Assembly (NCBI GenBank): GCA_964016885.1
Contig: OZ024744.1
Span: 121,210,001-121,274,000, forward strand
DNA from: Eledone cirrhosa
Lineage: Eukaryota
Length of the DNA stretch: 64,000 bases
Direction: 5' to 3'
The position numbers and the translations under genes are program-made. Shown piece after piece: positions 1-64,000 of this stretch. The notes under the pieces were generated by a model that ran no database searches, was not told the DNA's origin, and saw only the letters and a list, made by a program, of their open reading frames with translations. How positions within the stretch are numbered: the first letter of the stretch is position 1; each line of letters starts with the position of its first letter.

Positions 1-3000
1 TGTGTTGAGGAAGGATAAAAGTGACTGGGTGAGAGGAATATAGGTAGAGATAGATGTTGTGAAGAGAGATAGTGTGAGATGGTTGAGTCATGTGTTGAGG
101 AAGGATAAAAGTGACTGGGTGAGAGGAATAGTGGTAGTGATGGATGTTGTAAAGGGAGATAGTGTGAGATGGTTGGGTCATGTGTTGAGGAAGTATGAAA
201 GTGACTGGGTGAGAGGAATAGAGGTAGTGATGGATGTTGTGAAGAGAGATAGTGTGAGATGGTTGGGTCATATGTTGAGGAAGGATAAAAGTGACTGGGT
301 GAGAGGAATAGGGGTAGTGATGGATGTTGTGAAGAGAGATAGTGTGAGATGGTTGGGTCATGTGTTGAGGAGGGATAAAATTGATTGTGTGAGAGGAATA
401 GAGGTAGTGATGGATGTTGTGAAGAGAGATAGTGTGGGACGGTGGGTCATGTGTTGAGGAAGTATGAAAGTGACTGGGTGAGAGGAATAGAGGTAGTGAT
501 GGATGTTGTGAAGAGAGGTAGTGTGGGACGGTGGGTCATGTGTTGAGGAAGTATGAAAGTGACTGGGTGAGAGGAATCACAGGTAGTGATGGATGTTGTG
601 AAGAGAGATAGTGTGAGATGGTTGGGTCATGTGTTGAGGAAGGATAAAAGTGACTGGGTAAGAGGAATAGATGTAGTGATGGATGTCGTGAAGAGAGATA
701 GTGTGAGATGGTTGGGTCATGTGTTGAGGAAGGATACAAGTGAGTGGGAGAGAGGAATAGAGGTAGTGATAGATGTTGTGAAGAGAGATAGTGTGAGATG
801 GTTGGGTCATGTGTTGAGGAAGTATGAAAGTGACTGGGTGAGAGGAATAGAGGTAGAGATGGATGTTGTGAAGAGAGATAGTGTGAGATGGTTGGGTCAT
901 GTGTTGAGGAAGGATAAAAGTGACTGGGTGAGAGGAATAGAGGTAGTGATGGATGTTGTGAAGAGACATAGTGTGAGATGGTTGGTTCATATGTTGAGGA
1001 AGGATAAAAGTGAGTGGGTGAGAGGAATAGAGGTAGTGATAGATGTTGTGAAGAGAGATAGTGTGAGATGGTTGGGTCATGTGTTGAGGAAGTATGAAAG
1101 TGACTGGGTGAGAGGAATAGTGGTAGAGATGGATGTTGTGAAGAGAGATAGTGTGAGATGGTTGGGTCATGTGTTGAGGAAGTATGAAGGTGACTGGGTG
1201 AGCGAATAGAGGTAGTGATGGATGTTGTGAAGAGAGATAGTGTGAGATGGTTGGGTCATGTGTTGAGGAGGGATAAAATTGATTGGGTGAGAGGAATAGA
1301 GGTCGTGATGGATGTTGTGAAGAGAGATAGTGTGAGATGGTTGGGTCATGTGTTGAGGAAGGATTAAAGTGACTGGGTGAGAGGAATAGAGGTAGTGATG
1401 GATGTTGTGAAGAGAGATAGTGTGAGATGGTTGGGTCATGTGTTGAGGAAGGTTAAAAGTGACTGGGTGAGTGGAATAGAGGTAGTGATGGATGTTGTGA
1501 AGAGAGATAGTGTGAGATGGTTGGGTCATGTGTTGAGGAAGGATAAAAGTGAGTGGGTGAGAGGAATAGAGGTAGTGATGGATGTTGTGAAGAGAGATAG
1601 TGTGAGATGGTTGGGTCATGTGTTGAGGAAGGTTGAATGTGAATGGGTGAGAGGAACAGAGGTAGTGATGGATGTTGCGAAGAGAGATAGTGTGAGATGG
1701 TTGGGTCATGTGTTGAGGAAGGATAAAAGTGACTGGGTGAGAGGAATAGAGGTTTTGATGGATGTTGTGAAGAGAGATAGTGTGAGATGGTTGGGTCATA
1801 TGTTGAGGAAGGATAAAAGTGACTGGGTGAGAGGAATAGAGGTAGTGATGGATGTTGCGAAGAGAGATAGTGTGAGATGGTTGGGTCATGTGTTGAGGAA
1901 GTATGAAAGTGACTGGGTGAGAGGAATAGAGGTAGAGATGGATGTTGTGAAGAGAGATAGTGTGAGATGGTTGGGTCATGTGTTGAGGAAGGATAAAATT
2001 GACTGGGTGAGAGGAATAGTGGTAGTAATGGATGTTGTAAAGGGAGATAGTGTGAGATGGTTGGGTCATGTGTTGAGGAAGTATGAAAGTGACTGGGTGA
2101 GAGGAATAGAAGTAGTGATAGATGTTGTGAAGAGAGATAGTGTGAGATGGTTGGGTCATGTGTTGAGGAAGTATGAAATGACTGGGTGAGAGGAATAGAG
2201 GTAGAGATGGATGTTGTGAAGAGAGATAGTGTGAGATGGTTGGGTGATGTGTTGAGGAAGTATGAAAGTGACTGGGTGAGCGAATAGAGGTAGTGATGGA
2301 TGTTGTGAAGAGAGATAGTGTGAGATGGTTGGGTCATGTGTTGATGAGGGATAAAATTGATTGGGTGAGAGGAATAGAGGTAGTGATGGATGTTGTGAAG
2401 AGAGATAGTGTGAGATGTTTGGGTCATGTGTTGAGGAAGGATTAAAGTGACTGGGTGAGAGGAATAGAGGTAGTGATGGATGTTGTGAAGAGAGATAGTG
2501 TGAGATGGTTGGGTCATGTGTTGAGGAAGGATAAAAGTGACTGGGTGAGAGGAATAGTGGTAGAGATGGATGTTGTAAAGGGAGATAGTGTGAGATGGTT
2601 GGGTCATGTGTTGAGGAAGTATAAAAGTGACTGGGTGAGAGGAATAGAGGTAGTGATGGATGTTGTGAAGAGAGATAGTGTGAGATGGTTGGGTCATGTG
2701 TTGAGGAAAGTTAAAAGTGACTCGGTGAGTGGAATAGAGGTAGTGATGGATGTTGTGAGGAGAGATAGCGTGGGACGGTTGGGTCATGTGTTGAGGAAGT
2801 ATGAAAGTGACTGGGTGAGAGGAATCAGAGGTAGTGATGGATGTTGTGAAGAGAGATAGTGTGAGATGGTTGGGTCATGTGTTGAGGAAGGATAAAAGTT
2901 ACTGGGTGAGAGGAATAGAGGTAGTGATGGATGTTGTGAAGAGAGATAGTGTGAGATGGTTGGGTCATGTGTTGAGTAAGGATAAAAGTGACTGGGTGAG

Positions 3001-5160
3001 AGGAATAGAGGTAGTGATGGATGTTGTGAAGAGAGATAGTGTGAGATGGTTGGGTCATGTGTTGAGGAGGGATAAAAGTGAGTGGGTGAGAGGAATAGAG
3101 GTAGTGATGGATGTTGGGAAGAGAGATAGTGTGAGATGGTTGGGTCATGTGTTGAGGAAGGATAAAAGTAACTGGGTGAGTGGAATAGAGGTAGTGATGG
3201 ATGTTGCGAAGAGAGATAGTGTGAGATGGTTGGGTCATGTGTTGAGGAAGTATGAAAGTGACTGGGTGAGAGGAATAGAGGTAGAGATGGATGTTGTGAA
3301 GAGAGATAGAGTGAGATGGTTGGGTCATGTGTTGAGGAAGTATGAAAGTGACTGGGTGAGAGAAATAGAGGTAGTGATGGATGTTGTGAAGAGAGATAGT
3401 GTGAGATGGTTGGGTCATGTGTTGAGGAACGATAAAAGTGAGTGGGTGAGAGGAATAGTGGTATTGATGGATGTTGTGAAGAGAGATAGAGTGAGATGGT
3501 TGGGTCATGTGTTGAGGAAGGATAAAAGTGACTGGGTGAGAGGAATAGAGGTAGAGATGGATGTTGTGAAGAGAGATAGTGTGAGATGGTTGGGTCATGT
3601 GTTGAGGAAGTATGAAAGTGACTGGGTGAGAGGAATAGAGGTAGTGATAGATGTTGTGAAGACAGATTGTGTGAGATGGTTGGGTCATGTGTTGAGGAAG
3701 GATAAAAGTGACTGGGTGAGAGGAATAGAGGTAGAGATAGATGTTGTGAAGAGAGATAGTGTGAGATGGTTGAGTCATGTGTTGAGGAAGGATAAAAGTG
3801 ACTGGGTGAGAGGAATAGTGGTAGTGATGGATGTTGTAAAGGGAGATAGTGTGAGATGGTTGGGTCATGTGTTGAGGAAGTATGAAAGTGACTGGGTGAG
3901 AGGAATAGAGGTAGTGATGGATGTTGTGAAGAGAGATAGTGTGAGATGGTTGGGTCATATGTTGAGGAAGGATAAAAGTGACTGGGTGAGAGGAATAGGG
4001 GTAGTGATGGATGTTGTGAAGAGAGATAGTGTGAGATGGTTGGGTCATGTGTTGAGGAGGGATAAAATTGATTGTGTGAGAGGAATAGAGGTAGTGATGG
4101 ATGTTGTGAAGAGAGATAGTGTGGGACGGTGGGTCATGTGTTGAGGAAGTATGAAAGTGACTGGGTGAGAGGAATAGAGGTAGTGATGGATGTTGTGAAG
4201 AGAGGTAGTGTGGGACGGTGGGTCATGTGTTGAGGAAGTATGAAAGTGACTGGGTGAGAGGAATCACAGGTAGTGATGGATGTTGTGAAGAGAGATAGTG
4301 TGAGATGGTTGGGTCATGTGTTGAGGAAGGATAAAAGTGACTGGGTAAGAGGAATAGATGTAGTGATGGATGTCGTGAAGAGAGATAGTGTGAGATGGTT
4401 GGGTCATGTGTTGAGGAAGGATACAAGTGAGTGGGAGAGAGGAATAGAGGTAGTGATAGATGTTGTGAAGAGAGATAGTGTGAGATGGTTGGGTCATGTG
4501 TTGAGGAAGTATGAAAGTGACTGGGTGAGAGGAATAGAGGTAGAGATGGATGTTGTGAAGAGAGATAGTGTGAGATGGTTGGGTCATGTGTTGAGGAAGG
4601 ATAAAAGTGACTGGGTGAGAGGAATAGAGGTAGTGATGGATGTTGTGAAGAGACATAGTGTGAGATGGTTGGTTCATATGTTGAGGAAGGATAAAAGTGA
4701 GTGGGTGAGAGGAATAGAGGTAGTGATAGATGTTGTGAAGAGAGATAGTGTGAGATGGTTGGGTCATGTGTTGAGGAAGTATGAAAGTGACTGGGTGAGA
4801 GGAATAGTGGTAGAGATGGATGTTGTGAAGAGAGATAGTGTGAGATGGTTGGGTCATGTGTTGAGGAAGTATGAAGGTGACTGGGTGAGCGAATAGAGGT
4901 AGTGATGGATGTTGTGAAGAGAGATAGTGTGAGATGGTTGGGTCATGTGTTGAGGAGGGATAAAATTGATTGGGTGAGAGGAATAGAGGTCGTGATGGAT
5001 GTTGTGAAGAGAGATAGTGTGAGATGGTTGGGTCATGTGTTGAGGAAGGATTAAAGTGACTGGGTGAGAGGAATAGAGGTAGTGATGGATGTTGTGAAGA
5101 GAGATAGTGTGAGATGGTTGGGTCATGTGTTGAGGAAGGTTAAAAGTGACTGGGTGAGTG
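1..5160 (+). repeat. Duplicated block, offset 3687 bp (41 monomers): ~1-1470 repeated at ~3688-5160
   Basis: Identical ORFs 536..739/4223..4426 and 586..1209/4273..4896; shared rare alleles 'ggacggtggg' twice, 'gaatcacagg', 'gatacaag...gggagaga', 'agacatagtg'. Confidence 0.9.
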
Positions 5161-8100
5161 GAGTAGAGGTAGTGATGGATGTTGTGAAGAGAGATAGTGT
5201 GAGATGGTTGGGTCATATGTTGAGGAAGGATTAAAGTGACTGGGTGAGAGGAATAGTGGTAGTGATGGATGTTGTAAAGGGAGATAGTGTGAGATGATTG
5301 GGTCATGTGTTGAGGAAGTATGAAAGTGACTGGGTGAGAGGAATAGAGGTAGTGATAGATGTTGTGAAGAGAGATAGTGTGAGATGGTTGGGTCATGTGT
5401 TGAGGAAGTATGAAAGTGACTGGGTGAGAGGAATAGAGGTAGAGATGGATGTTGTGAAGAGAGATAGAGTGAGATGGTTGGGTCATGTGTTGAGGAAGTA
5501 TGAAAATGACTGGGTGAGGGAATAGAGGTAGTGATGGATGTTGTGAAGAGAGATAGTGTGAGATGGTTGGGTCATGTGTTGAGGAGGGATAAAATTGATT
5601 GGGTGAGAGGAATAGAGGTAGTGTTGGATGTTGTGAAGAGAGATAGTGTGAGATGGTTGGGTCATGTGTTCAGGAAGGATAAAAGTGAGTGGGTGAGAGG
5701 AATAGAGGTAGTGATGGATGTTGTGAAGAGAGATAGTGTGAGATGGTTGGGTCATGTGTTGAGGAAGGTTGAATGTGAATGGGTGAGAGGAACAGAGGTA
5801 GTGATGGATGTTGCGAAGAGAGATAGTGTGAGATGGCTGGGTCATGTGTTGAGGAAGGATAAAAGTGACTGGGTGAGAGGTATAGAGGTTTTGATGGATG
5901 TTGTAAAGGGAGATAGTGTGAGATGGTTGGGTCATGTGTTGAGGAAGTATGAATGTGACTGGGTGAGAGGAATAGAGGTAGTGATGGATGTTGTGAAGAG
6001 AGATAGTGTGAGATGGTTGGGTCATATGTTGAGGAAGGATAAAAGTGACTGGGTGAGAGGAATAGGGGTAGTGATGGATGTTGTGAGGAGAGATAGTGTG
6101 AGATGGTTGGGTCATGTGTTGAGAAAGTATGAAAGTGACTGGGTGAGAGGAATAGAGGTAGTGATGGATGTTGTGAAGAGAGATAGTGTGAGATGGTTGG
6201 GTCATGTGTTGAGGAGGGATAAAATTGATTGTGTGAGAGGAATAGAGGTAGTGATGGATGTTGTGAAGAGAGATAGTGTGAGATGGTTGGGTCATGTGTT
6301 GAGGTGGGATGAAAGTGACTGGGTGAAAGGAATAGAGGTAGTGATGGATGTTGTGAGGAGAGATAGTGTGAGATGGTTGGGTCATGTGTTGAGGAAGTAT
6401 GAAAGTGACTGGGTGAGAGGAATAGAGGTAGTGATGGATGTTGTGAAGAGATATAGTGTGAGATGGTTGGGTCATGGGTTTAGGAAGTATGAATGTGACT
6501 GGGTGAGAGGAATATAGGTAGTTATGGATGTTGTGAAGAGAGATAGTGTGAGATGGTTGGGTCATGTGTTGAGGAAGGATAAAAGTGACTGGGTGAGAGG
6601 AATAGAGGTAGTGATGGATGTTGTGAAGAGAGATAGTGTGAGATGGTTGGTTCATATGTTGAGGAAGGATAAAAGTGAGTGGGTGAGAGGAATAGAGGTA
6701 GTGATAGATGTTGTGAAGAGAGATAGTGTGAGATGGTTGGGTCATGTGTTGAGGAAGTATGAAAGTGACTGGGTGAGAGGAATAGAGGTAGAGATGGATG
6801 TTGTGAAGAGAGATAGTGTGAGATGGTTGGGTCATGTGTTGAGGAAGGATTAAAGTGACTGGGTGAGAGGAATAGAGGTAGTGATGGATGTTGTGAAGAG
6901 ACATAGTGTGAGATGGTTGGTTCATATGTTGAGGAAGGATAAAAGTGAGTGGGTGAGAGGAATAGAGGTAGTGATAGATGTTGTGAAGAGAGATAGTGTG
7001 AGATGGTTGGGTCATGTGTTGAGGAAGTATGAAAGTGACTGGGTGAGAGGAATAGTGGTAGAGATGGATGTTGTGAAGAGAGATAGTGTGAGATGGTTGG
7101 GTCATGTGTTGAGGAAGTATGAAGGTGACTGGGTGAGCGAATAGAGGTAGTGATGGATGTTGTGAAGAGAGATAGTGTGAGATGGTTGGGTCATGTGTTG
7201 AGGAGGGATAAAATTGATTGGGTGAGAGGAATAGAGGTCGTGATGGATGTTGTGAAGAGAGATAGTGTGAGATGGTTGGGTCATGTGTTGAGGAAGGATT
7301 AAAGTGACTGGGTGAGAGGAATAGAGGTAGTGATGGATGTTGTGAAGAGAGATAGTGTGAGATGGTTGGGTCATGTGTTGAGGAAGGTTAAAAGTGACTG
7401 GGTGAGTGGAATAGAGGTAGTGATGGATGTTGTGAAGAGAGATAGTGTGAGATGGTTGGGTCATGTGTTGAGGAAGGATAAAAGTGAGTGGGTGAGAGGA
7501 ATAGAGGTAGTGATGGATGTTGTGAAGAGAGATAGTGTGAGATGGTTGGGTCATGTGTTGAGGAAGGTTGAATGTGAATGGGTGAGAGGAACAGAGGTAG
7601 TGATGGATGTTGCGAAGAGAGATAGTGTGAGATGGTTGGGTCATGTGTTGAGGAAGTATGAAAGTGACTGGGTGAGAGGAATAGTGGTAGAGATGGATGT
7701 TGTGAAGAGAGATAGTGTGAGATGGTTGGGTCATGTGTTGAGGAAGTATGAAGGTGACTGGGTGAGCGAATAGAGGTAGTGATGGATGTTGTGAAGAGAG
7801 ATAGTGTGAGATGGTTGGGTCATGTGTTGAGGAGGGATAAAATTGATTGGGTGAGAGGAATAGAGGTCGTGATGGATGTTGTGAAGAGAGATAGTGTGAG
7901 ATGGTTGGGTCATGTGTTGAGGAAGGATTAAAGTGACTGGGTGAGAGGAATAGAGGTAGTGATGGATGTTGTGAAGAGAGATAGTGTGAGATGGTTGGGT
8001 CATGTGTTGAGGAAGGTTAAAAGTGACTGGGTGAGTGGAGTAGAGGTAGTGATGGATGTTGTGAAGAGAGATAGTGTGAGATGGTTGGGTCATATGTTGA

Positions 8101-10520
8101 GGAAGGATTAAAGTGACTGGGTGAGAGGAATAGTGGTAGTGATGGATGTTGTAAAGGGAGATAGTGTGAGATGATTGGGTCATGTGTTGAGGAAGTATGA
8201 AAGTGACTGGGTGAGAGGAATAGAGGTAGTGATAGATGTTGTGAAGAGAGATAGTGTGAGATGGTTGGGTCATGTGTTGAGGAAGTATGAAAGTGACTGG
8301 GTGAGAGGAATAGAGGTAGAGATGGATGTTGTGAAGAGAGATAGAGTGAGATGGTTGGGTCATGTGTTGAGGAAGTATGAAAATGACTGGGTGAGGGAAT
8401 AGAGGTAGTGATGGATGTTGTGAAGAGAGATAGTGTGAGATGGTTGGGTCATGTGTTGAGGAGGGATAAAATTGATTGGGTGAGAGGAATAGAGGTAGTG
8501 TTGGATGTTGTGAAGAGAGATAGTGTGAGATGGTTGGGTCATGTGTTCAGGAAGGATAAAAGTGAGTGGGTGAGAGGAATAGAGGTAGTGATGGATGTTG
8601 TGAAGAGAGATAGTGTGAGATGGTTGGGTCATGTGTTGAGGAAGGTTGAATGTGAATGGGTGAGAGGAACAGAGGTAGTGATGGATGTTGCGAAGAGAGA
8701 TAGTGTGAGATGGCTGGGTCATGTGTTGAGGAAGGATAAAAGTGACTGGGTGAGAGGTATAGAGGTTTTGATGGATGTTGTAAAGGGAGATAGTGTGAGA
8801 TGGTTGGGTCATGTGTTGAGGAAGTATGAATGTGACTGGGTGAGAGGAATAGAGGTAGTGATGGATGTTGTGAAGAGAGATAGTGTGAGATGGTTGGGTC
8901 ATATGTTGAGGAAGGATAAAAGTGACTGGGTGAGAGGAATAGGGGTAGTGATGGATGTTGTGAGGAGAGATAGTGTGAGATGGTTGGGTCATGTGTTGAG
9001 AAAGTATGAAAGTGACTGGGTGAGAGGAATAGAGGTAGTGATGGATGTTGTGAAGAGAGATAGTGTGAGATGGTTGGGTCATGTGTTGAGGAGGGATAAA
9101 ATTGATTGTGTGAGAGGAATAGAGGTAGTGATGGATGTTGTGAAGAGAGATAGTGTGAGATGGTTGGGTCATGTGTTGAGGTGGGATGAAAGTGACTGGG
9201 TGAAAGGAATAGAGGTAGTGATGGATGTTGTGAGGAGAGATAGTGTGAGATGGTTGGGTCATGTGTTGAGGAAGTATGAAAGTGACTGGGTGAGAGGAAT
9301 AGAGGTAGTGATGGATGTTGTGAAGAGATATAGTGTGAGATGGTTGGGTCATGGGTTTAGGAAGTATGAATGTGACTGGGTGAGAGGAATATAGGTAGTT
9401 ATGGATGTTGTGAAGAGAGATAGTGTGAGATGGTTGGGTCATGTGTTGAGGAAGGATAAAAGTGACTGGGTGAGAGGAATAGAGGTAGTGATGGATGTTG
9501 TGAAGAGAGATAGTGTGAGATGGTTGGTTCATATGTTGAGGAAGGATAAAAGTGAGTGGGTGAGAGGAATAGAGGTAGTGATAGATGTTGTGAAGAGAGA
9601 TAGTGTGAGATGGTTGGGTCATGTGTTGAGGAAGTATGAAAGTGACTGGGTGAGAGGAATAGAGGTAGAGATGGATGTTGTGAAGAGAGATAGTGTGAGA
9701 TGGTTGGGTCATGTGTTGAGGAAGGATAAAAGTGACTGGGTGAGAGGAATAGAGGTAGTGATGGATGTTGTGAAGAGACATAGTGTGAGATGGTTGGTTC
9801 ATATGTTGAGGAAGGATAAAAGTGAGTGGGTGAGAGGAATAGAGGTAGTGATAGATGTTGTGAAGAGAGATAGTGTGAGATGGTTGGGTCATGTGTTGAG
9901 GAAGTATGAAAGTGACTGGGTGAGAGGAATAGTGGTAGAGATGGATGTTGTGAAGAGAGATAGTGTGAGATGGTTGGGTCATGTGTTGAGGAAGTATGAA
10001 GGTGACTGGGTGAGCGAATAGAGGTAGTGATGGATGTTGTGAAGAGAGATAGTGTGAGATGGTTGGGTCATGTGTTGAGGAGGGATAAAATTGATTGGGT
10101 GAGAGGAATAGAGGTCGTGATGGATGTTGTGAAGAGAGATAGTGTGAGATGGTTGGGTCATGTGTTGAGGAAGGATTAAAGTGACTGGGTGAGAGGAATA
10201 GAGGTAGTGATGGATGTTGTGAAGAGAGATAGTGTGAGATGGTTGGGTCATGTGTTGAGGAAGGTTAAAAGTGACTGGGTGAGTGGAATAGAGGTAGTGA
10301 TGGATGTTGTGAAGAGAGATAGTGTGAGATGGTTGGGTCATGTGTTGAGGAAGGATAAAAGTGAGTGGGTGAGAGGAATAGAGGTAGTGATGGATGTTGT
10401 GAAGAGAGATAGTGTGAGATGGTTGGGTCATGTGTTGAGGAAGGTTGAATGTGAATGGGTGAGAGGAACAGAGGTAGTGATGGATGTTGCGAAGAGAGAT
10501 AGTGTGAGATGGTTGGGTCA
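4780..10520 (+). repeat. Tandem higher-order duplication, period 2877 bp (32 monomers)
   Basis: ORF pairs 4854/7731, 5298/8175, 5483/8360, 5531/8408, 6524/9401, 7102/9979 are all offset by 2877; shared alleles 'gtgttcagg', 'atggctggg', 'gggtttagg'. Confidence 0.9.
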
Positions 10521-51200: not shown

Positions 51201-54200
51201 GATAAAAGTGACTGGGTGAGAGGAATAGAGGTAGTGATGGATGTTGTGAAGAGAGATAGTGTGAGATGGTTGGGTCATGTGTTAAGGAATGATAAAAGTG
51301 GCTGGGTGAGAGGAATAGAGGTAGTGATGGATGTTGTGAAGAGAGATAGTGTGAGATGGTTGGGTCATGTGTTGAGGAGGGATAAAATTGATTGGGTGAG
51401 AGGAATAGAGGTAGTGATGGATGTTGTGAAGGGAGATAGTGTGAGATGGTTGGGTCAGGTGTTGAGGAAGGATAAAAGTGAGTGGGTGAGAGGAATAGAG
51501 GTAATGATGGATGTTGTGAAGAGAGATAGTGTGAGATGGTTGGGTCATGAGTTGAGGAAGGTTGAATGTGAATGGGTGAGAGGAACAGAGGTAGTGATCG
51601 ATGTTGCGAAGAGAGATAGTGTGAGATGGTTGGGTCATGTGTTGAGGAATGTTAAAAGCGACTGGGTGAGAGGAATAGAGTTAGTGATGGATGTTGCGAA
51701 AAGAGATAGTGTGAGATGGTTGGGTCATGTGTTGAGGAAGTATGAAAGTGACTGGGTGAGAGGAATAGAGGTAGTGATGGATGTTGTGAAGAGAGATAGT
51801 GTGAGATGGTTGGGTCATGTGTTGAGGAAGGATTAAAGTGACTGGGTGAGAGCAATAGAGGTAGTGATGGATGTTGTGAAGTGAGATAGTGTGAGATGGT
51901 TGGGTCATGTGTTGAGGAAGGATAAAAGTGACTGGGTGAGAGGAATAGTGGTAGTGATGGATGTTGTAAAGGGAGATAGTGTGAGATGGTTGGGTCATGT
52001 GTTGAGGAAGGACGAAAGTGACTGGGTGAGAGGAATAGAGGTAGAGATGGATGTTGTGAAGAGAGATAGTGTGAGATGGTTGAGTCATGTGTTGAGGAAG
52101 TATGAAAGTGACTGGGCGAGCGAATAGAGGTAGTGATGGATGTTGTGAAGAGAGATAGTGTGAGATGGTTCGGTCATGTGTTGAGGAGGGATAAAATTGA
52201 TTGGGTGAGAGGAATAAAGGTAGTGATGGATGTTGTGAAGAGAGATAGTGTGAGATGGTTGGGTCATGTGTTGAGAAAGGAATAAAGTGACTGGGTGAGA
52301 GGAATAGAGGTAGTGATGGATGTTGTGAAGAGAGATAGTGTGAGATGGTTGGGTCATGTGTTGAGGAAGGATAAAAGTGACTGGGTGAGAGGAATAGTGG
52401 TAGTGATGGATGTTGTAAAGGGAGATAGTGTGAGATGGTTGGGTCATGTGTTGAGGAAGTATAAAAGTGACTGGGTGAGAGGAATAGAGGTAGTGATGGA
52501 TGTTGTGAAGAGAGATAGTGTGAGATGGTTGGGTCCTGTGTTGAGGAAGGATGAAAGTGACTGGGTGAGAAGAACAGAGGTAGTGATGGATGTTGTGAAG
52601 AGAGATAGTGTGAGATGGTTGGATCATGTGTTGAAGAAGGTTAAAAGTGACTGGGTGAGTCGAATAGAGGTAGTGATGAATGTTGTGAAGAGAGATAGTG
52701 TGGGACGGTTGGGTCATGTGTTGAGGAAGGATAAAAGTGACTGGGTGAGAGGAATAGAGGTAGTGATGGATGTTGTGAAGAGAGATAGTGTGAGATGGTT
52801 GGATCATGTGTTGAGGAAGGTTGAATGTGAATGGGTGAGAGGAACAGAGGTAGTGATGGATGTTGCGAAGAGAGATAGTGTGAGATGGTTGGGTCATGTG
52901 TTGAGGAAGGTTGAATGTGAATGGGTGAGAGGAACAGAGGTAGTGATGGATGTTGTGAAGAGAGATAGTGTGAGATGGTTGGGTCATGTGTTGAGGAAGG
53001 TTGAATGTGAATTAGGTGAGAGGAACAGAGGTAGTGATGGATGTTGTGAAGAGAGATAGTGTGAGATGGTTGGGTCATGTGTTGAGGAAGGTTGAATGTG
53101 AATGGGTGAGAGGAACAGAGGTAGTGATGGATGTTGCGAAGAGAGATAGTGTGAGATGGTTGGGTCATGTGTTGAGGAAGGATAAAAGTGACTGGGTGAG
53201 AGGAATAGAGGTAGTGATGGATGTTGCGAAGAGAGATAGTGTGAGATGGTTGGGTCATGTGTTGAGGAAGGATAAAAGTGACTGGGTGAGAGGAATAGAG
53301 GTTGTGATGGATGTTGTGAAGAGAGATAGTGTGAGATGGTTGGGTCATGTGTTGAGGAAGTATGAAAGTGACTGGGTGAGAGGAATAGAGGTACTGATAG
53401 ATGTTGTGAAGACAGATAGTGTGAGATGGTTGGGTCATGTGTTGAGGAAGGATAAAAGTGACTGGGTTAGAGGAATAGAGGTGGAGATGGATGTTGTGAA
53501 GAGAGATAGTGTGAGATGGTTGGGTCATGTGTTGTTGAAGTATGAAAGTGACTGGGTGAGGGAATAGAGGTAGTGATGGTTGTTGTGAAGAGAGATAGGG
53601 TGAGATGGTTAGGTCATGTGTTGAGGAGGGATAAAATTGATTGGGTGAGAGGAATAGAGGTAGTTATGGATGTTGTGAAGAGAGATAGTGTGAGATGGTT
53701 GGGTCATGTGTTGAGGAAGGATAAAAGTGAGTGGGTGAGAGGAATAGAGGTAGTGATGGATGTTGTGAAGACAGATAGTGTGAGATGGTTGGGTCATGTG
53801 TTGAGGAAGGTTGAATGTGAATGGGTGAGAAGAATAGAGGTTTTGATGGATGTTGTGAAGAGAGATAGTGTGAGATGGTTAGCTCATGTGTTGAGGAAGG
53901 ATAAAAGTGACTGGGTGAGAGGAATAGAGGTTGTGATGGATGTTGTGAAGCAAGATAGTGTGAGATGGTTGGGTCATGTGTTGAGGAATTATGAAAGTGA
54001 CTGGGTGAGAGGAATAGAGGTAGTGATAGATGTTGTGAAGACAGATAGTGTGAGATGGTTGTGTCATGTGTTGAGGAAGTATGAAAGTGACTGGGTGAGA
54101 GGAATAGAGGTAGTGATGGATGTTGTGAAGAGAGATAGTGTGAGATGGTTGGGTCATGTGTTGAGGAAGGATAAAAGTGACTGGGTGAGAGGAATAGTGG

Positions 54201-55259
54201 TAGTGATGGATGTTGTAAAGGGAGATAGTGTGAGATAGTTGGGTCATGTGTTGAGGAAGTATAAAAGTGACTGGGTGAGAGGAATAGAGGTAGTGATGGA
54301 TGTTGTGAAGAGAGATAGTGTGAGATGGTTGGGTCCTGTGTTGAGGAAGGATGAAAGTGACTGGGTGACAAGAACAGAGGTAGTGATGGATGTTGTGAAG
54401 AGAGATAGTGTGAGATGGTTGGATCATGTGTTGAAGAAGGTTAAAAGTGACTGGGTGAGTGGAATAGAGGTAGTGATGAATGTTGTCAAGAGAGATAGTG
54501 TGGGACGGTTGGGTCATGTGTTGAGGAAGGATAAAAGTGACTGGGTGAGAGGAATAGAGGTAGTGATGGATGTTGTGAAGAGAGATAGTGTGAGATGGTT
54601 GGGTCATGTGTTGAGGAAGGTTGAATGTGAATGGGTGAGAGGAACAGAGGTAGTGATGGATGTTGTGAAGAGAGATAGTGTGAGATGGTTGGGTCATGTG
54701 TTGAGGAAGGTTGAATGTGAATGGGTGAGAGGAACAGAGGTAGTGATGGATGTTGCGAAGAGAGATAGTGTGAGATGGTTGGGTCATGTGTTGACGAAGG
54801 ATAAAAGTGACTGGGTGAGAGGAATAGAGGTAGTGATGGATGTTGCGAAGAGAGATAGTGTGAGATGGTTGGGTCATGTGTTGAGGAAGGATAAAAGTGA
54901 CTGGGTGAGAGGAATAGAGGTTTTGATGGATGTTGTGAAGAGAGATAGTGTGAGATGGTTGTGTCATGTGTTGAGGAAGTATGAAAGTGACTGGGTGAGA
55001 GGAATAGAGGTAGTGATGGATGTTGTGAAGAGATATAGTGTGAGATGGTTGGGTCATGTGTTGAGGAAGGATAAAAGAGACTGGGTGAGAGGAATAGAGG
55101 TAGTGATGGATGTTGTAATGGTAGATAGTGTGAGATGGTTGGGTCATGTGTTGAGGAAGGTTAAAAGTGACTGGGTGAGTGGAATAGAGGTAGTGATGGA
55201 TGTTGTAAAGAGAGATAGTGTGGGACGGTAGGGTCATGTGTTGAGGAAGTATGAATGTG

Positions 55260-58200
55260 ACTGGGTGAGAGGAATCAGAGGTAGTGATGGATGTTGTGAT
55301 GAGAGATAGTGTGAGATGGTTGGGTCATGTGTTGAGGAAGGATAAAACTGACTGGGTGAGAGGAATAGAGGTAGTGATGGATGTTGTGAAGAGAGATAGT
55401 GTGAGATGGTTGGGTCATGTGTTAAGGAAGGATAAAAGTGGCTGGGTGAGAGGAATAGAGGTAGTGATGCATGTTGTGAAGAGAGATAGTGTGAGATGGT
55501 TGGGTCATGTGTTAAGGAAGTATGAATGTGACTGGGTGAGACGAATAGAGGTAGTGATGGATGTTGTGAAGAGAGATAGTGTGAGATGGTTGGGTCATGT
55601 GTTGAGGAAGGATTAAAGTGACTGGGTGAGAGCAATAGAGGTAGTGATGGATGTTGTGAAGAGAGATAGTGTGAGATGGTTGGGTCATGTGTTGAGGAAG
55701 TATGAAATTGACTGGGTGAGAGGAATAGAGGTAGTGATGGATGTTGTGAAGAGAGATAGTGTGAGATGGTTGGGTCATGTGTTGAGGAAGGATAAAAGTG
55801 ACTGGGTGAGAGGAATAGTGGTAGTGATGGATGTTGTAAAGGGAGATAGTGTGAGATGGTTGGGTCATGTGTTGAGGAAGTATGAAAGTGACTGGGTGAG
55901 AGGAATAGAGGTAGTGATAGATGTTGTGAAGAGAGATAGTGTGAGATGGTTGGGTCATGTGTTGAGGAAGTATGAAAGTGACTGGGTGAGAGGAATAGAG
56001 GTAGAGATGGATGTTGTGAAGAGAGATAGTGTGAGATGGTTGAGTCATGTGTTGAGGAAGTATGAAAGTGACTGAGCGAGCGAATAGAGGTAGTGATGGA
56101 TGTTGTGAAGAGAGATAGTGTGAGATGGTTCGGTCATGTGTTGAGGAGGGATAAAATTGATTGGGTGAGAGGAATAAAGGTAGTGATGGATGTTGTGAAG
56201 AGAGATAGTGTGAGATGGTTGGGTCATGTGTTGAGAAAGGAATAAAGTGACTGGGTGAGAGGAATAGAGGTAGTGATGGATGTTGTGAAGAGAGATAGTG
56301 TGAGATGGTTGGGTCATGTGTTGTGGAAGGATAAAAGTGACTGGGTGAGAGGAATAGTGGTAGTGATGGATGTTGTAAAGGGAGATAGTGTGAGATGGTT
56401 GGGTCATGTGTTGAGGAAATATAAAAGTGACTGGGTGAGAGGAATAGAGGTAGTGATGGATGTTGTGAAGAGAGATAGTGTGAGATGGTTGGGTCCTGTG
56501 TTGAGGAAGGATGAAAGTGACTGGGTGAGAAGAACAGAGGTAGTGATGGATGTTGTGAAGAGAGATAGTGTGAGATGGTTGGATCATGTGTTGAAGAAGG
56601 TTAAAAGTGACTGGGTGAGTGGAATAGAGGTAGTGATGAATGTTGTGAAGAGAGATAGTGTGGGACGGTTGGGTCATGTGTTGAGGAAGGATAAAAGTGA
56701 CTGGGTGAGAGAAATAGAGGTAGTGATGGATGTTGTGAAGAGAGATAGTGTGAGATGGTTGGATCATGTGTTGAGGAAGGTTGAATGTGAATGGGTGAGA
56801 GGAACAGAGGTAGTGATGGATGTTGCGAAGAGAGATAGTGTGAGATGGTTGGGTCATGTGTTGAGGAAGGTTGAATGTGAATGGGTGAGAGGAACAGAGG
56901 TAGTGATGGATGTTGTGAAGAGAGATAGTGTGAGATGGTTGGGTCATGTGTTGAGGAAGGTTGAAGGTGAATGGGTGAGAGGAACAGAGGTAGTGATGGA
57001 TGTTGTGAAGAGAGATAGTGTGAGATGGTTGGGTCATGTGTTGAGGAAGGTTGAATGTGAATGGGTGAGAGGAACAGAGGTAGTGATGGATGTTGCGAAG
57101 AGAGATAGTGTGAGATGGTTGGGTCATGTGTTGAGGAAGGATAAAAGTGACTGGGTGAGAGGAATAGAGGTAGTGATGGATGTTGCGAAGAGAGATAGTG
57201 TGAGATGGTTGGGTCATGTGTTGAGGAAGGATAAAAGTGACTGGGTGAGAGGAATAGAGGTTGTTATGGATGTTGTGAAGAGAGATAGTGTGAGATGGTT
57301 GGGTCATGTGTTGAGGAAGTATGAAAGTGACTGGGTGAGAGGAATAGAGGTACTGATAGATGTTGTGAAGACAGATAGTGTGAGATGGTTGCGTCATGTG
57401 TTGAGGAAGGATAAAAGTGACTGGGTGAGAGGAATCAGAGGTAGTGATGGATGTTGTGATGAGAGATAGTGTGAGATGGTTGGGTCATGTGTTGAGGAAG
57501 GATAAAACTGACTGGGTGAGAGGAATAGAGGTAGTGATGGATGTTGTGAAGAGAGATAGTGTGAGATGGTTGGGTCATGTGTTAAGGAAGGATAAAAGTG
57601 GCTGGGTGAGAGGAATAGAGGTAGTGATGCATGTTGTGAAGAGAGATAGTGTGAGATGGTTGGGTCATGTGTTAAGGAAGTATGAATGTGACTGGGTGAG
57701 ACGAATAGAGGTAGTGATGGATGTTGTGAAGAGAGATAGTGTGAGATGGTTGGGTCATGTGTTGAGGAAGGATTAAAGTGACTGGGTGAGAGCAATAGAG
57801 GTAGTGATGGATGTTGTGAAGAGAGATAGTGTGAGATGGTTGGGTCATGTGTTGAGGAAGTATGAAATTGACTGGGTGAGAGGAATAGAGGTAGTGATGG
57901 ATGTTGTGAAGAGAGATAGTGTGAGATGGTTGGGTCATGTGTTGAGGAAGGATAAAAGTGACTGGGTGAGAGGAATAGTGGTAGTGAGGATGTTGTAAAG
58001 GGAGATAGTGTGAGATGGTTGGGTCATGTGTTGAGGAAGTATGAAAGTGACTGGGTGAGAGGAATAGAGGTAGTGATAGATGTTGTGAAGAGAGATAGTG
58101 TGAGATGGTTGGGTCATGTGTTGAGGAAGTATGAAAGTGACTGGGTGAGAGGAATAGAGGTAGAGATGGATGTTGTGAAGAGAGATAGTGTGAGATGGTT

Positions 58201-59590
58201 GAGTCATGTGTTGAGGAAGTATGAAAGTGACTGAGCGAGCGAATAGAGGTAGTGATGGATGTTGTGAAGAGAGATAGTGTGAGATGGTTCGGTCATGTGT
58301 TGAGGAGGGATAAAATTGATTGGGTGAGAGGAATAAAGGTAGTGATGGATGTTGTGAAGAGAGATAGTGTGAGATGGTTGGGTCATGTGTTGAGAAAGGA
58401 ATAAAGTGACTGGGTGAGAGGAATAGAGGTAGTGATGGATGTTGTGAAGAGAGATACTGTGAGATGGTTGGGTCATGTGTTGAGGAAGGATAAAAGTGAC
58501 TGGGTGAGAGGAATAGTGGTAGTGATGGATGTTGTAAAGGGAGATAGTGTGAGATGGTTGGGTCATGTGTTGAGGAAATATAAAAGTGACTGGGTGAGAG
58601 GAATAGAGGTAGTGATGGATGTTGTGAAGAGAGATAGTGTGAGATGGTTGGGTCCTGTGTTGAGGAAGGATGAAAGTGACTGGGTGAGAAGAACAGAGGT
58701 AGTGATGGATGTTGTGAAGAGAGATAGTGTGAGATGGTTGGATCATGTGTTGAAGAAGGTTAAAAGTGACTGGGTGAGTGGAATAGAGGTAGTGATGAAT
58801 GTTGTGAAGAGAGATAGTGTGGGACGGTTGGGTCATGTGTTGAGGAAGGATAAAAGTGACTGGGTGAGAGAAATAGAGGTAGTGATGGATGTTGTGAAGA
58901 GAGATAGTGTGAGATGGTTGGATCATGTGTTGAGGAAGGTTGAATGTGAATGGGTGAGAGGAACAGAGGTAGTGATGGATGTTGCGAAGAGAGATAGTGT
59001 GAGATGGTTGGGTCATGTGTTGAGGAAGGTTGAATGTGAATGGGTGAGAGGAACAGAGGTAGTGATGGATGTTGTGAAGAGAGATAGTGTGAGATGGTTG
59101 GGTCATGTGTTGAGGAAGGTTGAAGGTGAATGGGTGAGAGGAACAGAGGTAGTGATGGATGTTGTGAAGAGAGATAGTGTGAGATGGTTGGGTCATGTGT
59201 TGAGGAAGGTTGAATGTGAATGGGTGAGAGGAACAGAGGTAGTGATGGATGTTGCGAAGAGAGATAGTGTGAGATGGTTGGGTCATGTGTTGAGGAAGGA
59301 TAAAAGTGACTGGGTGAGAGGAATAGAGGTAGTGATGGATGTTGCGAAGAGAGATAGTGTGAGATGGTTGGGTCATGTGTTGAGGAAGGATAAAAGTGAC
59401 TGGGTGAGAGGAATAGAGGTTGTGATGGATGTTGTGAAGAGAGATAGTGTGAGATGGTTCGGTCATGTGTTGAGGAAGTATGAAAGTGACTGGGTGAGAG
59501 GAATAGAGGTACTGATAGATGTTGTGAAGACAGATAGTGTGAGATGGTTGCGTCATGTGTTGAGGAAGGATAAAAGTGACTGGGTGAGAG
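55260..59590 (+). repeat. Tandem higher-order duplication, period 2159-2160 bp (24 monomers)
   Basis: ORF pairs 55284/57444, 55626/57786 (2160) and 56045/58204, 56255/58414 (2159, after a 1-nt deletion at ~57988); shared rare alleles 'gataaaactg', 'gatgcatg', 'actgagcgagcg', 'ttgaaggtgaa'. Confidence 0.9.
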
Positions 59591-60039
59591 GAATAGAGGT
59601 GGAGATGGATGTTGAGAAGAGAGATAGTGTGAGATGGTTGGGTCATGTGTTGTTGAAGTATGAAAGTGACTGGGTGACGGAATAGAGGTAGTGATGGATG
59701 TTGTGAAGAGAGATAGGGTGAGATGGTTAGGTCATGTGTTGAGGAGGGATAAAATTGATTAGGTGAGAGGAATAGAGGTAGTTATGGATGTTGTGAAGAG
59801 AGATAGTGTGAGATGGATGGGTCATGTGTTGAGGAAGGATAAAAGTGACTGGGTGAGAGGAATAGAGGTAGTGATGGATGTTGTGAAGACAGATAGTGTG
59901 AGATGGTTGGGTCATGTGTTGAGGAAGGTTGAATGTGAATGGGTGAGAAGAATAGAGGTTTTGATGGATGTTGTGAAGAGAGATAGTGTGAGATGGTTAG
60001 CTCATGTGTTGAGGAAGGATAAAAGTGACTGGGTGAGAG

Positions 60040-63000
60040 GAATAGAGGTTGTGATGGATGTTGTGAAGCAAGATAGTGTGAGATGGTTGGGTCATGTGTT
60101 GAGGAATTATGAAAGTGACCGGGTGAGAGGAATAGAGTAGTGATAGATGTTGTGAAGACAGATAGTGTGAGATGGTTGTGTCATGTGTTGAGGAAGTATG
60201 AAAGTGACTGGGTGAGAGGAATAGAGGTAGTGATGGATGTTGTGAAGAGAGATAGTGTGAGATGGTTGGGTCATGTGTTGAGGAAGGATAAAAGTGACTG
60301 GGTGAGAGGAATAGTGGTAGTGATGGATGTTGTAAAGGGAGATAGTGTGAGATAGTTGGGTCATGTGTTGAGGAAGTATAAAAGTGACTGGGTGAGAGGA
60401 ATAGAGGTAGTGATGGATGTTGTGAAGAGAGATAGTGTGAGATGGTTGGGTCCTGTGTTGAGGAAGGATGAAAGTGACTGGGTGACAAGAACAGAGGTAG
60501 TGATGGATGTTGTGAAGAGAGATAGTGTGAGATGGTTGGATCATGTGTTGAAGAAGGTTAAAAGTGACTGGGTGAGTGGAATAGAGGTAGTAATGAATGT
60601 TGTGAAGAGAGATAGTGTGGGACGGTTGGGTCATGTGTTGAGGAAGGATAAAAGTGACTGGGTGAGAGGAATAGAGGTAGTGATGGATGTTGTGAAGAGA
60701 GATAGTGTGAGATGGTTGGGTCATGTGTTGAGGAAGGTTGAATGTGAATGGGTGAGAGGAACAGAGGTAGTGATGGATGTTGTGAAGAGAGATAGTGTGA
60801 GATGGTTGGGTCATGTGTTGAGGAAGGTTGAATGTGAATGGGTGAGAGGAACAGAAGTAGTGATGGATGTTGCGAAGAGAGATAGTGTGAGATGGTTGGG
60901 TCATGTGTTGAGGAAGGATAAAAGTGACTGGGTGAGAGGAATAGAGGTAGTGATGGATGTTGCGAAGAGAGATAGTGTGAGATGGTTGGGTCATGTGTTG
61001 AGGAAGGATAAAAGTGACTGGGTGAGAGGAATAGAGGTTTTGATGGATGTTGTGAAGAGAGATAGTGTGAGATGGTTAGCTAATGTGTTGAGGAAGGATA
61101 AAAGTGACTGGGTGAGAGGAATAGAGGTTGTGATGGATGTTGTGAAGAGAGATAGTGTGAGATGGTTGGGTCATGTGTTGAGGAAGTATGAAAGTGACTG
61201 GGTGAGAGGAATAGAGGTACTGATAGATGTTGTGAAGACAGATAGTGTGAGATGGTTGGGTCATGTGTTGAGGAAGGATAAAAGTGACTGGGTGAGAGGA
61301 ATAGAGGTTGTGATGGATGTTGTGAAGCAAGATAGTGTGAGATGGTTGGGTCATGTGTTGAGGAATTATGAAAGTGACTGGGTGAGAGGAATAGAGGTAG
61401 TGATAGATGTTGTGAAGACAGATAGTGTGAGATGGTTGTGTCATGTGTTGAGGAAGTATGAAAGTGACTGGGTGAGAGGAATAGAGGTAGTGATGGATGT
61501 TGTGAAGAGAGATAGTGTGAGATGGTTGGGTCATGTGTTGAGGAAGGATAAAAGTGACTGGGTGAGAGGAATAGTGGTAGTGATGGATGTTGTAAAGGGA
61601 GATAGTGTGAGATAGTTGGGTCATGTGTTGAGGAAGTATAAAAGTGACTGGGTGAGAGGAATAGAGGTAGTGATGGATGTTGTGAAGAGAGATAGTGTGA
61701 GATGGTTGGGTCCTGTGTTGAGGAAGGATGAAAGTGACTGGGTGACAAGAACAGAGGTAGTGATGGATGTTGTGAAGAGAGATAGTGTGAGATGGTTGGA
61801 TCATGTGTTGAAGAAGGTTAAAAGTGACTGGGTGAGTGGAATAGAGGTAGTAATGAATGTTGTGAAGAGAGATAGTGTGGGACGGTTGGGTCATGTGTTG
61901 AGGAAGGATAAAAGTGACTGGGTGAGAGGAATAGAGGTAGTGATGGATGTTGTGAAGAGAGATAGTGTGAGATGGTTGGGTCATGTGTTGAGGAAGGTTG
62001 AATGTGAATGGGTGAGAGGAACAGAGGTAGTGATGGATGTTGTGAAGAGAGATAGTGTGAGATGGTTGGGTCATGTGTTGAGGAAGGTTGAATGTGAATG
62101 GGTGAGAGGAACAGAGGTAGTGATGGATGTTGCGAAGAGAGATAGTGTGAGATGGTTGGGTCATGTGTTGAGGAAGGATAAAAGTGACTGGGTGAGAGGA
62201 ATAGAGGTAGTGATGGATGTTGCGAAGAGAGATAGTGTGAGATGGTTGGGTCATGTGTTGAGGAAGGATAAAAGTGACTGGGTGAGAGGAATAGAGGTTG
62301 TGATGGATGTTGTGAAGAGAGATAGTGTGAGATGGTTGGGTCATGTGTTGAGGAAGTATGAAAGTGACTGGGTGAGAGGAATAGAGGTACTGATAGATGT
62401 TGTGAAGACAGATAGTGTGAGATGGTTGGGTCATGTGTTGAGGAAGGATAAAAGTGACTGGGTTAGAGGAATAGAGGTGGAGATGGATGTTGTGAAGAGA
62501 GATAGTGTGAGATGGTTGGGTCATGTGTTGAGGAAGGATAAAAGTGACTGGGTGAGAGGAATAGAGGTTTTGATGGATGTTGTGAAGAGAGATAGTGTGA
62601 GATGGTTAGCTAATGTGTTGAGGAAGGATAAAAGTGACTGGGTGAGAGGAATAGAGGTTGTGATGGATGTTGTGAAGAGAGATAGTGTGAGATGGTTGGG
62701 TCATGTGTTGAGGAAGTATGAAAGTGACTGGGTGAGAGGAATAGAGGTACTGATAGATGTTGTGAAGACAGATAGTGTGAGATGGTTGGGTCATGTGTTG
62801 AGGAAGGATAAAAGTGACTGGGTGAGAGGAATAGAGGTTGTGATGGATGTTGTGAAGCAAGATAGTGTGAGATGGTTGGGTCATGTGTTGAGGAATTATG
62901 AAAGTGACTGGGTGAGAGGAATAGAGGTAGTGATAGATGTTGTGAAGACAGATAGTGTGAGATGGTTGTGTCATGTGTTGAGGAAGTATGAAAGTGACTG

Positions 63001-64000
63001 GGTGAGAGGAATAGAGGTAGTGATGGATGTTGTGAAGAGAGATAGTGTGAGATGGTTGGGTCATGTGTTGAGGAAGGATAAAAGTGACTGGGTGAGAGGA
63101 ATAGTGGTAGTGATGGATGTTGTAAAGGGAGATAGTGTGAGATAGTTGGGTCATGTGTTGAGGAAGTATAAAAGTGACTGGGTGAGAGGAATAGAGGTAG
63201 TGATGGATGTTGTGAAGAGAGATAGTGTGAGATGGTTGGGTCCTGTGTTGAGGAAGGATGAAAGTGACTGGGTGACAAGAACAGAGGTAGTGATGGATGT
63301 TGTGAAGAGAGATAGTGTGAGATGGTTGGATCATGTGTTGAAGAAGGTTAAAAGTGACTGGGTGAGTGGAATAGAGGTAGTAATGAATGTTGTGAAGAGA
63401 GATAGTGTGGGACGGTTGGGTCATGTGTTGAGGAAGGATAAAAGTGACTGGGTGAGAGGAATAGAGGTAGTGATGGATGTTGTGAAGAGAGATAGTGTGA
63501 GATGGTTGGGTCATGTGTTGAGGAAGGTTGAATGTGAATGGGTGAGAGGAACAGAGGTAGTGATGGATGTTGTGAAGAGAGATAGTGTGAGATGGTTGGG
63601 TCATGTGTTGAGGAAGGTTGAATGTGAATGGGTGAGAGGAACAGAGGTAGTGATGGATGTTGCGAAGAGAGATAGTGTGAGATGGTTGGGTCATGTGTTG
63701 AGGAAGGATAAAAGTGACTGGGTGAGAGGAATAGAGGTAGTGATGGATGTTGCGAAGAGAGATAGTGTGAGATGGTTGGGTCATGTGTTGAGGAAGGATA
63801 AAAGTGACTGGGTGAGAGGAATAGAGGTTTTGATGGATGTTGTGAAGAGAGATAGTGTGAGATGGTTAGCTAATGTGTTGAGGAAGGATAAAAGTGACTG
63901 GGTGAGAGGAATAGAGGTTGTGATGGATGTTGTGAAGAGAGATAGTGTGAGATGGTTGGGTCATGTGTTGAGGAAGTATGAAAGTGACTGGGTGAGAGGA
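60040..64000 (+). repeat. Young higher-order repeat of 14-17 monomers (offsets 1260 and 1530 bp), ~3 copies, related to ~53900-54950
   Basis: Marker set 'gaagcaagatag', 'gagatagttggg', 'ggtgacaagaacag' recurs at ~60070/60350/60480, ~61325/61610/61740, ~62855/63140/63270 and earlier at ~53950/54235/54365; ORF offsets 60356/61616 = 1260 and 61076/62606 = 1530. Confidence 0.88.

What the first reader, a model, noticed from the sequence alone, without database searches (positions are those of the whole stretch)
1..64000. A >=64-kb satellite apparently built from 90 bp of a LINE (RTE-like) coding sequence
Seen: the + frame of the monomer is stop-free in consensus and reads (R)GIEVVMDVVKRDSVRWLGHVLRKDKSDWV. 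Known: RTE-type non-LTR retrotransposons carry, C-terminal to the RT domain, a conserved block like 'I...I..RRLRWxGHVxR......K......G.R.RGRP..RW'. The monomer matches the WxGHVxR core, the upstream hydrophobic spacing and a downstream 'D..DWV' that I recall from invertebrate members. It stops just before the RGRP motif and restarts at 'GI'. Inference: an internal 90-bp segment of a LINE ORF was tandemly duplicated and amplified into a major satellite. TE-derived satellites are known in general, but one made from an exact in-frame piece of a conserved LINE coding motif at this scale may be an undescribed family.
Basis: partly seen in the sequence, partly recalled or inferred. Interest (0 to 1): 0.8.

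Follow-up and report, generated by a model that had tools for sequence, protein, structure and literature searches.

The report
Megabase satellite from a LINE gene
A 90-letter piece from the end of a decayed jumping gene is repeated head-to-tail roughly 10,000 times on one chromosome; many scattered old copies of that element carry the same small duplication, which likely arose when its reverse transcriptase stuttered during insertion.

Summary
Confirmed and extended. The window is one 90-bp satellite (711 copies), part of two opposed arrays of about 415 and 524 kb on contig C28. The unit is residues 978-1007 of a 1060-aa endonuclease/RT LINE protein (24/30 identical) and 82/90 nt identical to a decayed LINE family of the host. 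It is non-coding: all 8 changes are non-synonymous, and stops and frameshifts are common. New: this segment is a duplication hotspot of the parent family. 8 of 36 copies chosen by flanks or protein carry it in tandem; 40 of 45 back-jumps land at the unit start. Units of 2-3-copy seeds differ as much as unrelated copies (19% vs 17%), so seeds are about as old as the insertions, likely from reverse-transcriptase slippage (inferred). Intermediate seeds lie on C28. The neighbouring 64-bp and second 90-bp satellites come from the same motif of two other LINE families. Against generality: a young family showed 0 of 30 duplications. RTE-clade membership, host and function are untested.

The parts
1..64000 (+). 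90-bp satellite array, about 711 head-to-tail copies; interior of the + array G000:C28:121,048,814-121,464,024 (about 415 kb)
   Evidence: interior probes
844..933 (+). One monomer in the LINE reading frame (30 codons), matching residues 978-1007 of LINE protein P0021
931..936 (+). Monomer junction (933|934) at a 3-nt GGA microhomology shared by the two Gly codons that bound the unit in the parent LINE
886..909 (+). RWLGHVLR core; the homologous motif also lies inside the units of the two neighbouring satellites
61616..63142 (+). Longest + strand stop-free stretch (509 codons); a by-product of a stop-free unit, not a gene

Best explanation
The window is a non-coding satellite whose 90-bp unit is a piece of the C-terminal coding region of a decayed RTE-like LINE, likely seeded by reverse-transcriptase slippage during insertion and likely expanded much later by DNA-level recombination. 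Step 1 (shown): the parent family has a duplication hotspot with a nearly fixed 5' boundary at the unit start and variable 3' boundaries. Step 2 (timing shown, mechanism inferred): the enzyme would pause at that boundary and either stop, giving 5' truncation, or re-anneal 64-107 nt back on the RNA at short imperfect homologies (most often 90 or 99 nt) and recopy, giving 2-5 units at insertion. Step 3 (inferred from intermediates): one decayed seed on C28 gained 7 fixed changes and grew by unequal exchange of multi-monomer blocks into two opposed arrays of about 10,400 units. No function is shown; neutral heterochromatic DNA is the default.
For: Origin. Hotspot: 8 of 36 loci chosen by flanking motif or protein (32 reach the unit start) are duplicated there; 40 of 45 distinct back-jumps in 65 loci land at -15..+20, with take-off at 64-101. 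Timing: in 15 arrays of 2-3 units, first and last units differ at 19.2% of sites with 1.3% shared derived changes, against 16.8% and 0.9% for pairs of 35 unrelated single copies. Mixed junctions inside one locus (L101: 73, 85, 90, 80 nt; L102: 99, 76; L104: 64 plus a partial 90) and at least three crossover points on the 90-nt diagonal. Duplicated copies begin at the unit start in 15 of 23 cases, single copies in 7 of 27 (p 0.01, window chosen after seeing the data). No subfamily signal among 11 loci of the 90-nt class or in 184 site tests (best p 0.005). Intermediates: LINE-flanked seeds at C28:115.08 and 118.81 Mb end in a unit with part of the satellite's changes; the 5' end of the minus array starts with LINE-type units. 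Expansion: 62% of 5-monomer blocks have a near-identical twin at lags such as 17-184 monomers, with no single higher-order period. Non-coding: 8 of 8 substitutions are non-synonymous; 11 of 14 possible stop changes are seen against 33 of 52 synonymous; 87 of 620 full-length monomers have a stop; 89 of 710 shift the frame.
Against: A young related family shows no duplication at the homologous site: 0 of 30 fetched loci and no clusters among 100 listed of 4263 matches, so stuttering is not general to these LINEs. The two commonest periods (90 in 14 and 99 in 5 of 25 loci) are in frame, which a master element with an in-frame duplication would also give. The perfect microhomology for 90 is only 3 nt, and equally good imperfect repeats elsewhere in the 500-nt reference are not duplicated. 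No stable RNA structure at the supposed pause stood out (one fold, -17.7 kcal/mol over 190 nt, no shuffle control). The parent family is old (copies 10-20% from their majority), so junctions are blurred and no fresh insertion was seen. Target-site duplications were not examined. No big-array end runs on into downstream LINE sequence.
Confidence: 0.58

Rival explanations
1. A few active master elements carried an in-frame 90- or 99-bp duplication and spread it by ordinary retrotransposition; the satellite grew from one such copy.
For: 90 and 99 nt, both in frame, are the commonest periods (14 and 5 of 25 loci). Independent divergence of units is also expected. Many loci share the 90-to-1 junction.
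Against: No excess of shared changes among 90-class loci (0.011 vs 0.008 per site in the unit, 0.027 vs 0.021 in the flank). 16 different periods, many out of frame, and mixed junctions within single loci. In-frame offsets are favoured anyway: 51 of the 100 best self-similarity windows are in frame.
Confidence: 0.2
2. The seeds are DNA-level events (replication slippage or microhomology repair) in a purine-rich stretch, made during or soon after integration, with no role for the RNA template.
For: The 90- and 99-nt diagonals rank at the top for imperfect homology around the landing site (15 and 14 of 29). Longer seeds (L054, L113, L115, L164) are homogeneous, so DNA-level expansion clearly happens.
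Against: Events spread over time would leave shared derived changes in two-unit seeds; these are near background. A fixed landing site with variable take-off, and its coincidence with 5' ends, are not expected.
Confidence: 0.19
3. The array encodes a selected 30-aa repeat protein.
For: Stop-free stretches of up to 509 codons in the window.
Against: No deficit of stops, frameshifts or amino-acid changes; minus-strand open frames are longer (722 codons).
Confidence: 0.02
4. The likeness to a LINE is chance from a G/A/T-rich unit.
For: Biased composition (2.6% C); no meaningful Pfam hit for the unit.
Against: 82/90 nt identity to collinear LINE copies; 0 of 2000 shuffles reach the score.
Confidence: 0.01

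Closest known systems
Ogre LTR-retrotransposon-derived satellites of Lathyrus sativus (PMC7004042; abstract seen)
   Same: Short tandem arrays inside dispersed retroelements, with occasional expansion into long arrays at few loci.
   Different: Here the element is a non-LTR LINE, the unit is conserved coding sequence, and the short arrays appear to arise anew in separate insertions.
LINE-related satellites: chicken HinfI (CR1 3' UTR plus part of ORF2), Phodopus PROsat (L1 ORF2), common cetacean satellite (L1 3' end) (PMC9659126; passages and parts of Table 1 seen)
   Same: Satellite monomers that hold LINE sequence, in two cases ORF2.
   Different: As described there, the LINE part is a piece of a larger monomer or is the 3' end. 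Here the whole monomer is one internal ORF segment, with parent, seeds and intermediates in one genome. 'RTE' does not occur in that review's main text.
Two-stage model and listed mechanisms of TE-to-satellite conversion (PMC12628747; passages and section 6 part 1 of 2 read)
   Same: Seed of a few copies, then expansion by unequal exchange; microhomology is invoked.
   Different: The part read lists DNA-level, rolling-circle and double-insertion routes; 'reverse transcript' occurs 0 times in the main text.
Template jumping and 3'-tail slippage of non-LTR reverse transcriptases (R2; RTE/CR1/L2 tails) - recalled, from no call
   Same: Nascent cDNA re-anneals on an intact RNA template through short homology.
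   Different: Here the jump would be internal, 64-107 nt long and repeated at one site.

Membership tests
satellite DNA | Long head-to-tail array (hundreds of kb) | tested here: met
   415 and 524 kb by end mapping; all 18 interior 1-kb probes are satellite
satellite DNA | Homogenised, non-coding monomers | tested here: met
   96% mean identity to consensus, 276 distinct of 710; no coding constraint
satellite DNA | Heterochromatic or centromeric location | not testable with these tools
   Needs CENP-A/H3K9me3 or methylation data; the region is a mosaic of satellites
APE-type non-LTR retrotransposon (parent) | AP endonuclease plus RT in one ORF that contains the unit | tested here: met
   P0021: PF03372 58-270, PF00078 584-788, unit 978-1007; best solved relatives L1 ORF2p and R2
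APE-type non-LTR retrotransposon (parent) | Dispersed, 5'-truncated copies in the host, collinear with the unit | tested here: met
RTE clade | RT-domain phylogeny within RTE | not tested
   No named reference set on hand; the RTE label rests on recalled motifs and on a 'CFDP2-like' name in the cluster (its link to RTE is recalled)
RTE clade | Single ORF, no ORF1 | tested here: inconclusive
   1060-aa EN+RT protein; DNA upstream of it not seen. PMC9115989 (passages) gives a single ORF for octopus RTEs and calls a zinc finger after RT rare; a PHD-like finger is present here, below Pfam's cut-off
RTE clade | No RNase H domain, short C-terminus | tested here: met
   No RNase H hit at E 0.01; the ORF ends 53 aa after the unit
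RTE clade | 3' end of short tandem repeats, target-site duplications | not tested
   Tails and TSDs of the old copies were not analysed
TE-internal arrays that expand (Ogre-type route) | Short arrays in dispersed elements, long arrays at few loci | tested here: met
   25 of 65 loci with seeds, a sample partly enriched for arrays; junction 29-mer first listed on C28, none on C1-C27

The most novel reading that the evidence does not exclude
A LINE's reverse transcriptase stutters at a fixed internal site and writes minisatellite seeds into about a fifth of its insertions, making the conserved RWxGHVxR coding motif of RTE-like LINEs a recurrent satellite factory: three families gave three adjacent satellites (about 0.94, at least 1.3 and 0.11 Mb) plus arrays on other chromosomes in one genome.
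Probability: 0.45. Interest if true: 0.78.

Novelty: new variant of a known kind. Interest (0 to 1): 0.6.

Why it matters
How the first few tandem copies of a satellite arise is rarely visible. Here parent, dated seeds, mid-sized arrays, intermediates and the megabase array lie in one assembly, and the seed step is a countable hotspot. If retrotransposition itself makes the seeds, that adds an RNA-level route to the DNA-level routes in the review section read and can be tested with a near-intact relative (P0021). It also warns that repeat annotation may count megabases of such satellites as LINE insertions.

Tried and rejected
Pfam on the repeat: 5 weak, unrelated hits, none above cut-off. Protein search of the genome with one unit: all 150 scored hits were the satellite. 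Looking for collinear LINE at the four big-array ends: none runs into downstream LINE; only the minus array's 5' end has ancestral-type units. Sequencing runs: no RNA holder listed; search on 4 words only. Runs X1, X3, X8, X9 (four organism codes) hold a circular 90-mer contig at low depth with little else; X16 none; X13 one partial contig. These may be traces or the source of this DNA, so they were not used as evidence of spread across species. X10 (1191 contigs) and X12 (109) hold the parent-type LINE; X10 lists many go-back joints of mixed size, taken as a lead only (likeness 85). Host identification through a family-B protein gave only distant marine invertebrate names (43-47%); host not established. 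A single higher-order repeat: not found. RNA structure as pause signal: nothing clear. Earlier findings near this place: none. Rows left out: L095 (other family) and two duplicates of L059 and L062 from the counts; L113, L116, L117, L118 from the jump analysis; L156 and L097 (partial second unit) from the dating table; only 28 distinct loci of the 386 matches were fetched.

Full report
Observation. The window is a single tandem array: period 90, 711.4 copies, 93% matches, 41.5% G and 2.6% C. Split into 710 monomers, it averages 96% identity to its consensus, with 276 distinct sequences. The window is G000:C28:121,210,001-121,274,000 of a 3.0-Gb assembly. The + array runs from 121,048,814 to 121,464,024 and an opposite-strand array from 121,801,281 to 122,325,276; all 18 interior 1-kb probes are satellite, though the interiors were sampled, not read through. 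Together that is about 10,400 units. A junction 29-mer has 1149 + 2090 exact matches, listed from C28 onward with none on C1-C27, near what the two arrays predict (about 1070 and 2480).

LINE origin. A 40-aa window stretch finds 10 proteins among 16 candidates, one with an RT domain. A full-length cluster member, P0021, has an AP endonuclease, RT and a PHD-like finger; the unit is its residues 978-1007, 24/30 identical, 12 codons before RGRP and 53 before the C-terminus. An independent profile of 100 distant proteins scores the unit at 26.0 bits, reached by 0 of 2000 shuffles. The host holds a decayed family ('A'): 11 of the top 12 hits to P0006 are 55-65% identical and all 11 have stops, while most of the other 139 hits are a more distant, largely intact family ('B', about 46%). 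The satellite matches the family-A majority at 82/90 nt, about the divergence of an ordinary old copy (9.5%), so an already decayed unit was amplified. The RTE label is likely but rests on domain layout and recall, not on a tree.

Not a gene. All 8 differences from the LINE change the amino acid. Within the array 65% of possible non-synonymous, 63% of synonymous and 79% of stop-making changes are present; 87 of 620 90-bp monomers have a stop and 89 of 710 shift the frame.

A duplication hotspot. Of 36 family-A loci chosen by a downstream motif (21), an upstream motif (6) or protein score (11; two duplicates removed), 8 carry a tandem duplication of this segment and 2 show a back-jump elsewhere. 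Adding 29 loci chosen by the core, which favours arrays, 40 of 45 distinct back-jumps land at -15..+20 of the unit start and leave from 64-101. Periods run from 64 to about 107, with 90 in 14 and 99 in 5 of 25 loci. These two offsets are among the best imperfect self-matches around the landing site, but equally good ones exist elsewhere in the reference: homology seems to choose the period, not the site.

Timing and mechanism. In 15 seeds of 2-3 units, first and last units are as different as unrelated copies (19.2% vs 16.8%; shared derived 1.3% vs 0.9%), so the duplications are about as old as the insertions. Several loci mix junctions (L101 has four periods). Duplicated copies start at the unit boundary more often than single ones (15 of 23 vs 7 of 27, p 0.01, post hoc). 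No subfamily signal marks the 90-nt class. I infer that the RT paused at the unit's 5' boundary and either ended or slipped back on the RNA. Against: the young family B shows 0 of 30 such duplications (p 0.006 against 8 of 36), the main periods are in frame as a master-element origin would predict, and no pause signal was found.

From seed to satellite. Longer seeds are homogeneous (L113, 28.7 copies, 95%; L116, about 31), showing later DNA-level growth. Two LINE-flanked seeds on C28 (115.08 and 118.81 Mb) end in a unit that, read by eye, has 4 of the satellite's 7 fixed changes; gene conversion from the satellite is not excluded. The minus array begins with LINE-type units split by an inverted family-B fragment, and the first units of the + array keep single LINE letters. 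Inside the window 62% of 5-monomer blocks have a near-identical twin at lags such as 24, 41, 43, 45 and 139 monomers, with no fixed higher-order unit.

Neighbours. A 64-bp satellite (from at least 119,700,001 to 121,006,317; ten interior or edge probes) runs at its right end into the upstream part of a third LINE family, 'C'. A 65-bp sister on C1 runs into the downstream part; the core has 21,035 exact matches. A second 90-bp satellite (121,478,566-121,591,938) derives from a B-type family; its junction has 2160 matches, with arrays on C9, C12 and C18 among the first 100 listed, and the C9 array runs on into LINE sequence. Both units beat 2000 shuffles on the independent profile (26.5 and 12.9 bits) and contain the same motif. 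For B and C frequent seeds were not shown, and the bias of truncated LINEs toward their 3' ends may explain part of the convergence; this was not tested.

Known and new. TE-derived satellites, including ones with LINE ORF2 pieces, are known (PMC9659126, passages; PMC7004042, abstract; PMC12628747, passages and section 6 part 1 of 2). Searches listed no paper on a satellite made wholly of an RTE ORF segment or on RT slippage as a seed; the library lacks most subscription journals, Dfam and Repbase were not on hand, and no supplements were opened (a repeat library could already hold these units). My impression that the host is an octopus is recalled from its interspersed repeats and comes from no call. 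On that guess I read passages of PMC13282606 ('satellite' 0 times), PMC9115989 and PMC10925132; passages of PMC10257491 and PMC13295347 were not relevant.

Verdict. A real, likely undescribed satellite: LINE origin about 0.99, seeds made at or near insertion about 0.8, RT slippage about 0.55-0.6. New variant of a known kind; interest 0.6.

Noticed in passing
G000:C28:119,700,001-121,006,317 (L152, L131, L011-L017, L031); C1:2.887 Mb onward (L204-L224): 64-bp and 65-bp satellites from the same motif of LINE family C, each with one end running into LINE ORF sequence.
   Followed up: partly
G000:C28:121,478,566-121,591,938 (L041-L050, L146-L148); C9:308.5 kb (L180); C12 (L186); C18:5.36 Mb (L189): Second 90-bp satellite (with an 83-bp variant) from a family-B LINE; the C9 array of 10 copies keeps its LINE 3' flank.
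   Followed up: partly
L032 8431-10000, L033, L117 1-3722, L119: 48-bp satellite that resembles the 48/49-bp repeat behind the ORF of family-B elements (L180), a possible fourth LINE-derived satellite.
   Followed up: no
G000:C28:122,333,811 to beyond 122,401,000 (L139-L145): 42-bp satellite (126-bp higher period) beside the minus array; further arrays of 40, 82 and shorter periods nearby. Origin not examined.
   Followed up: no
contig C28: 136.5 Mb but numbered after C6 (102.6 Mb), so out of size order; it may be a sex chromosome (inference). Coleoid Z chromosomes are reported as LINE-rich (PMC10925132, passages), relevant only if the host is a coleoid.
   Followed up: no
P0008 cluster: The closest intact relatives of the host's decayed family A cluster with a hagfish (Myxine glutinosa) entry; possible horizontal transfer if the host is an invertebrate.
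   Followed up: no
G000:C28:121.05-122.33 Mb: The two arrays point toward each other around a 337-kb spacer that holds the second 90-bp satellite.
   Followed up: no
L164 (C6:70.756 Mb): 14-copy array of a family-A unit with the standard junction but an internal deletion of about 38 nt.
   Followed up: no
window, monomer positions 70 and 73: Two common variants (227 and 284 of 710 monomers); position 73 keeps the LINE letter in 40%, and position 70 is about twice as frequent in the minus array.
   Followed up: partly
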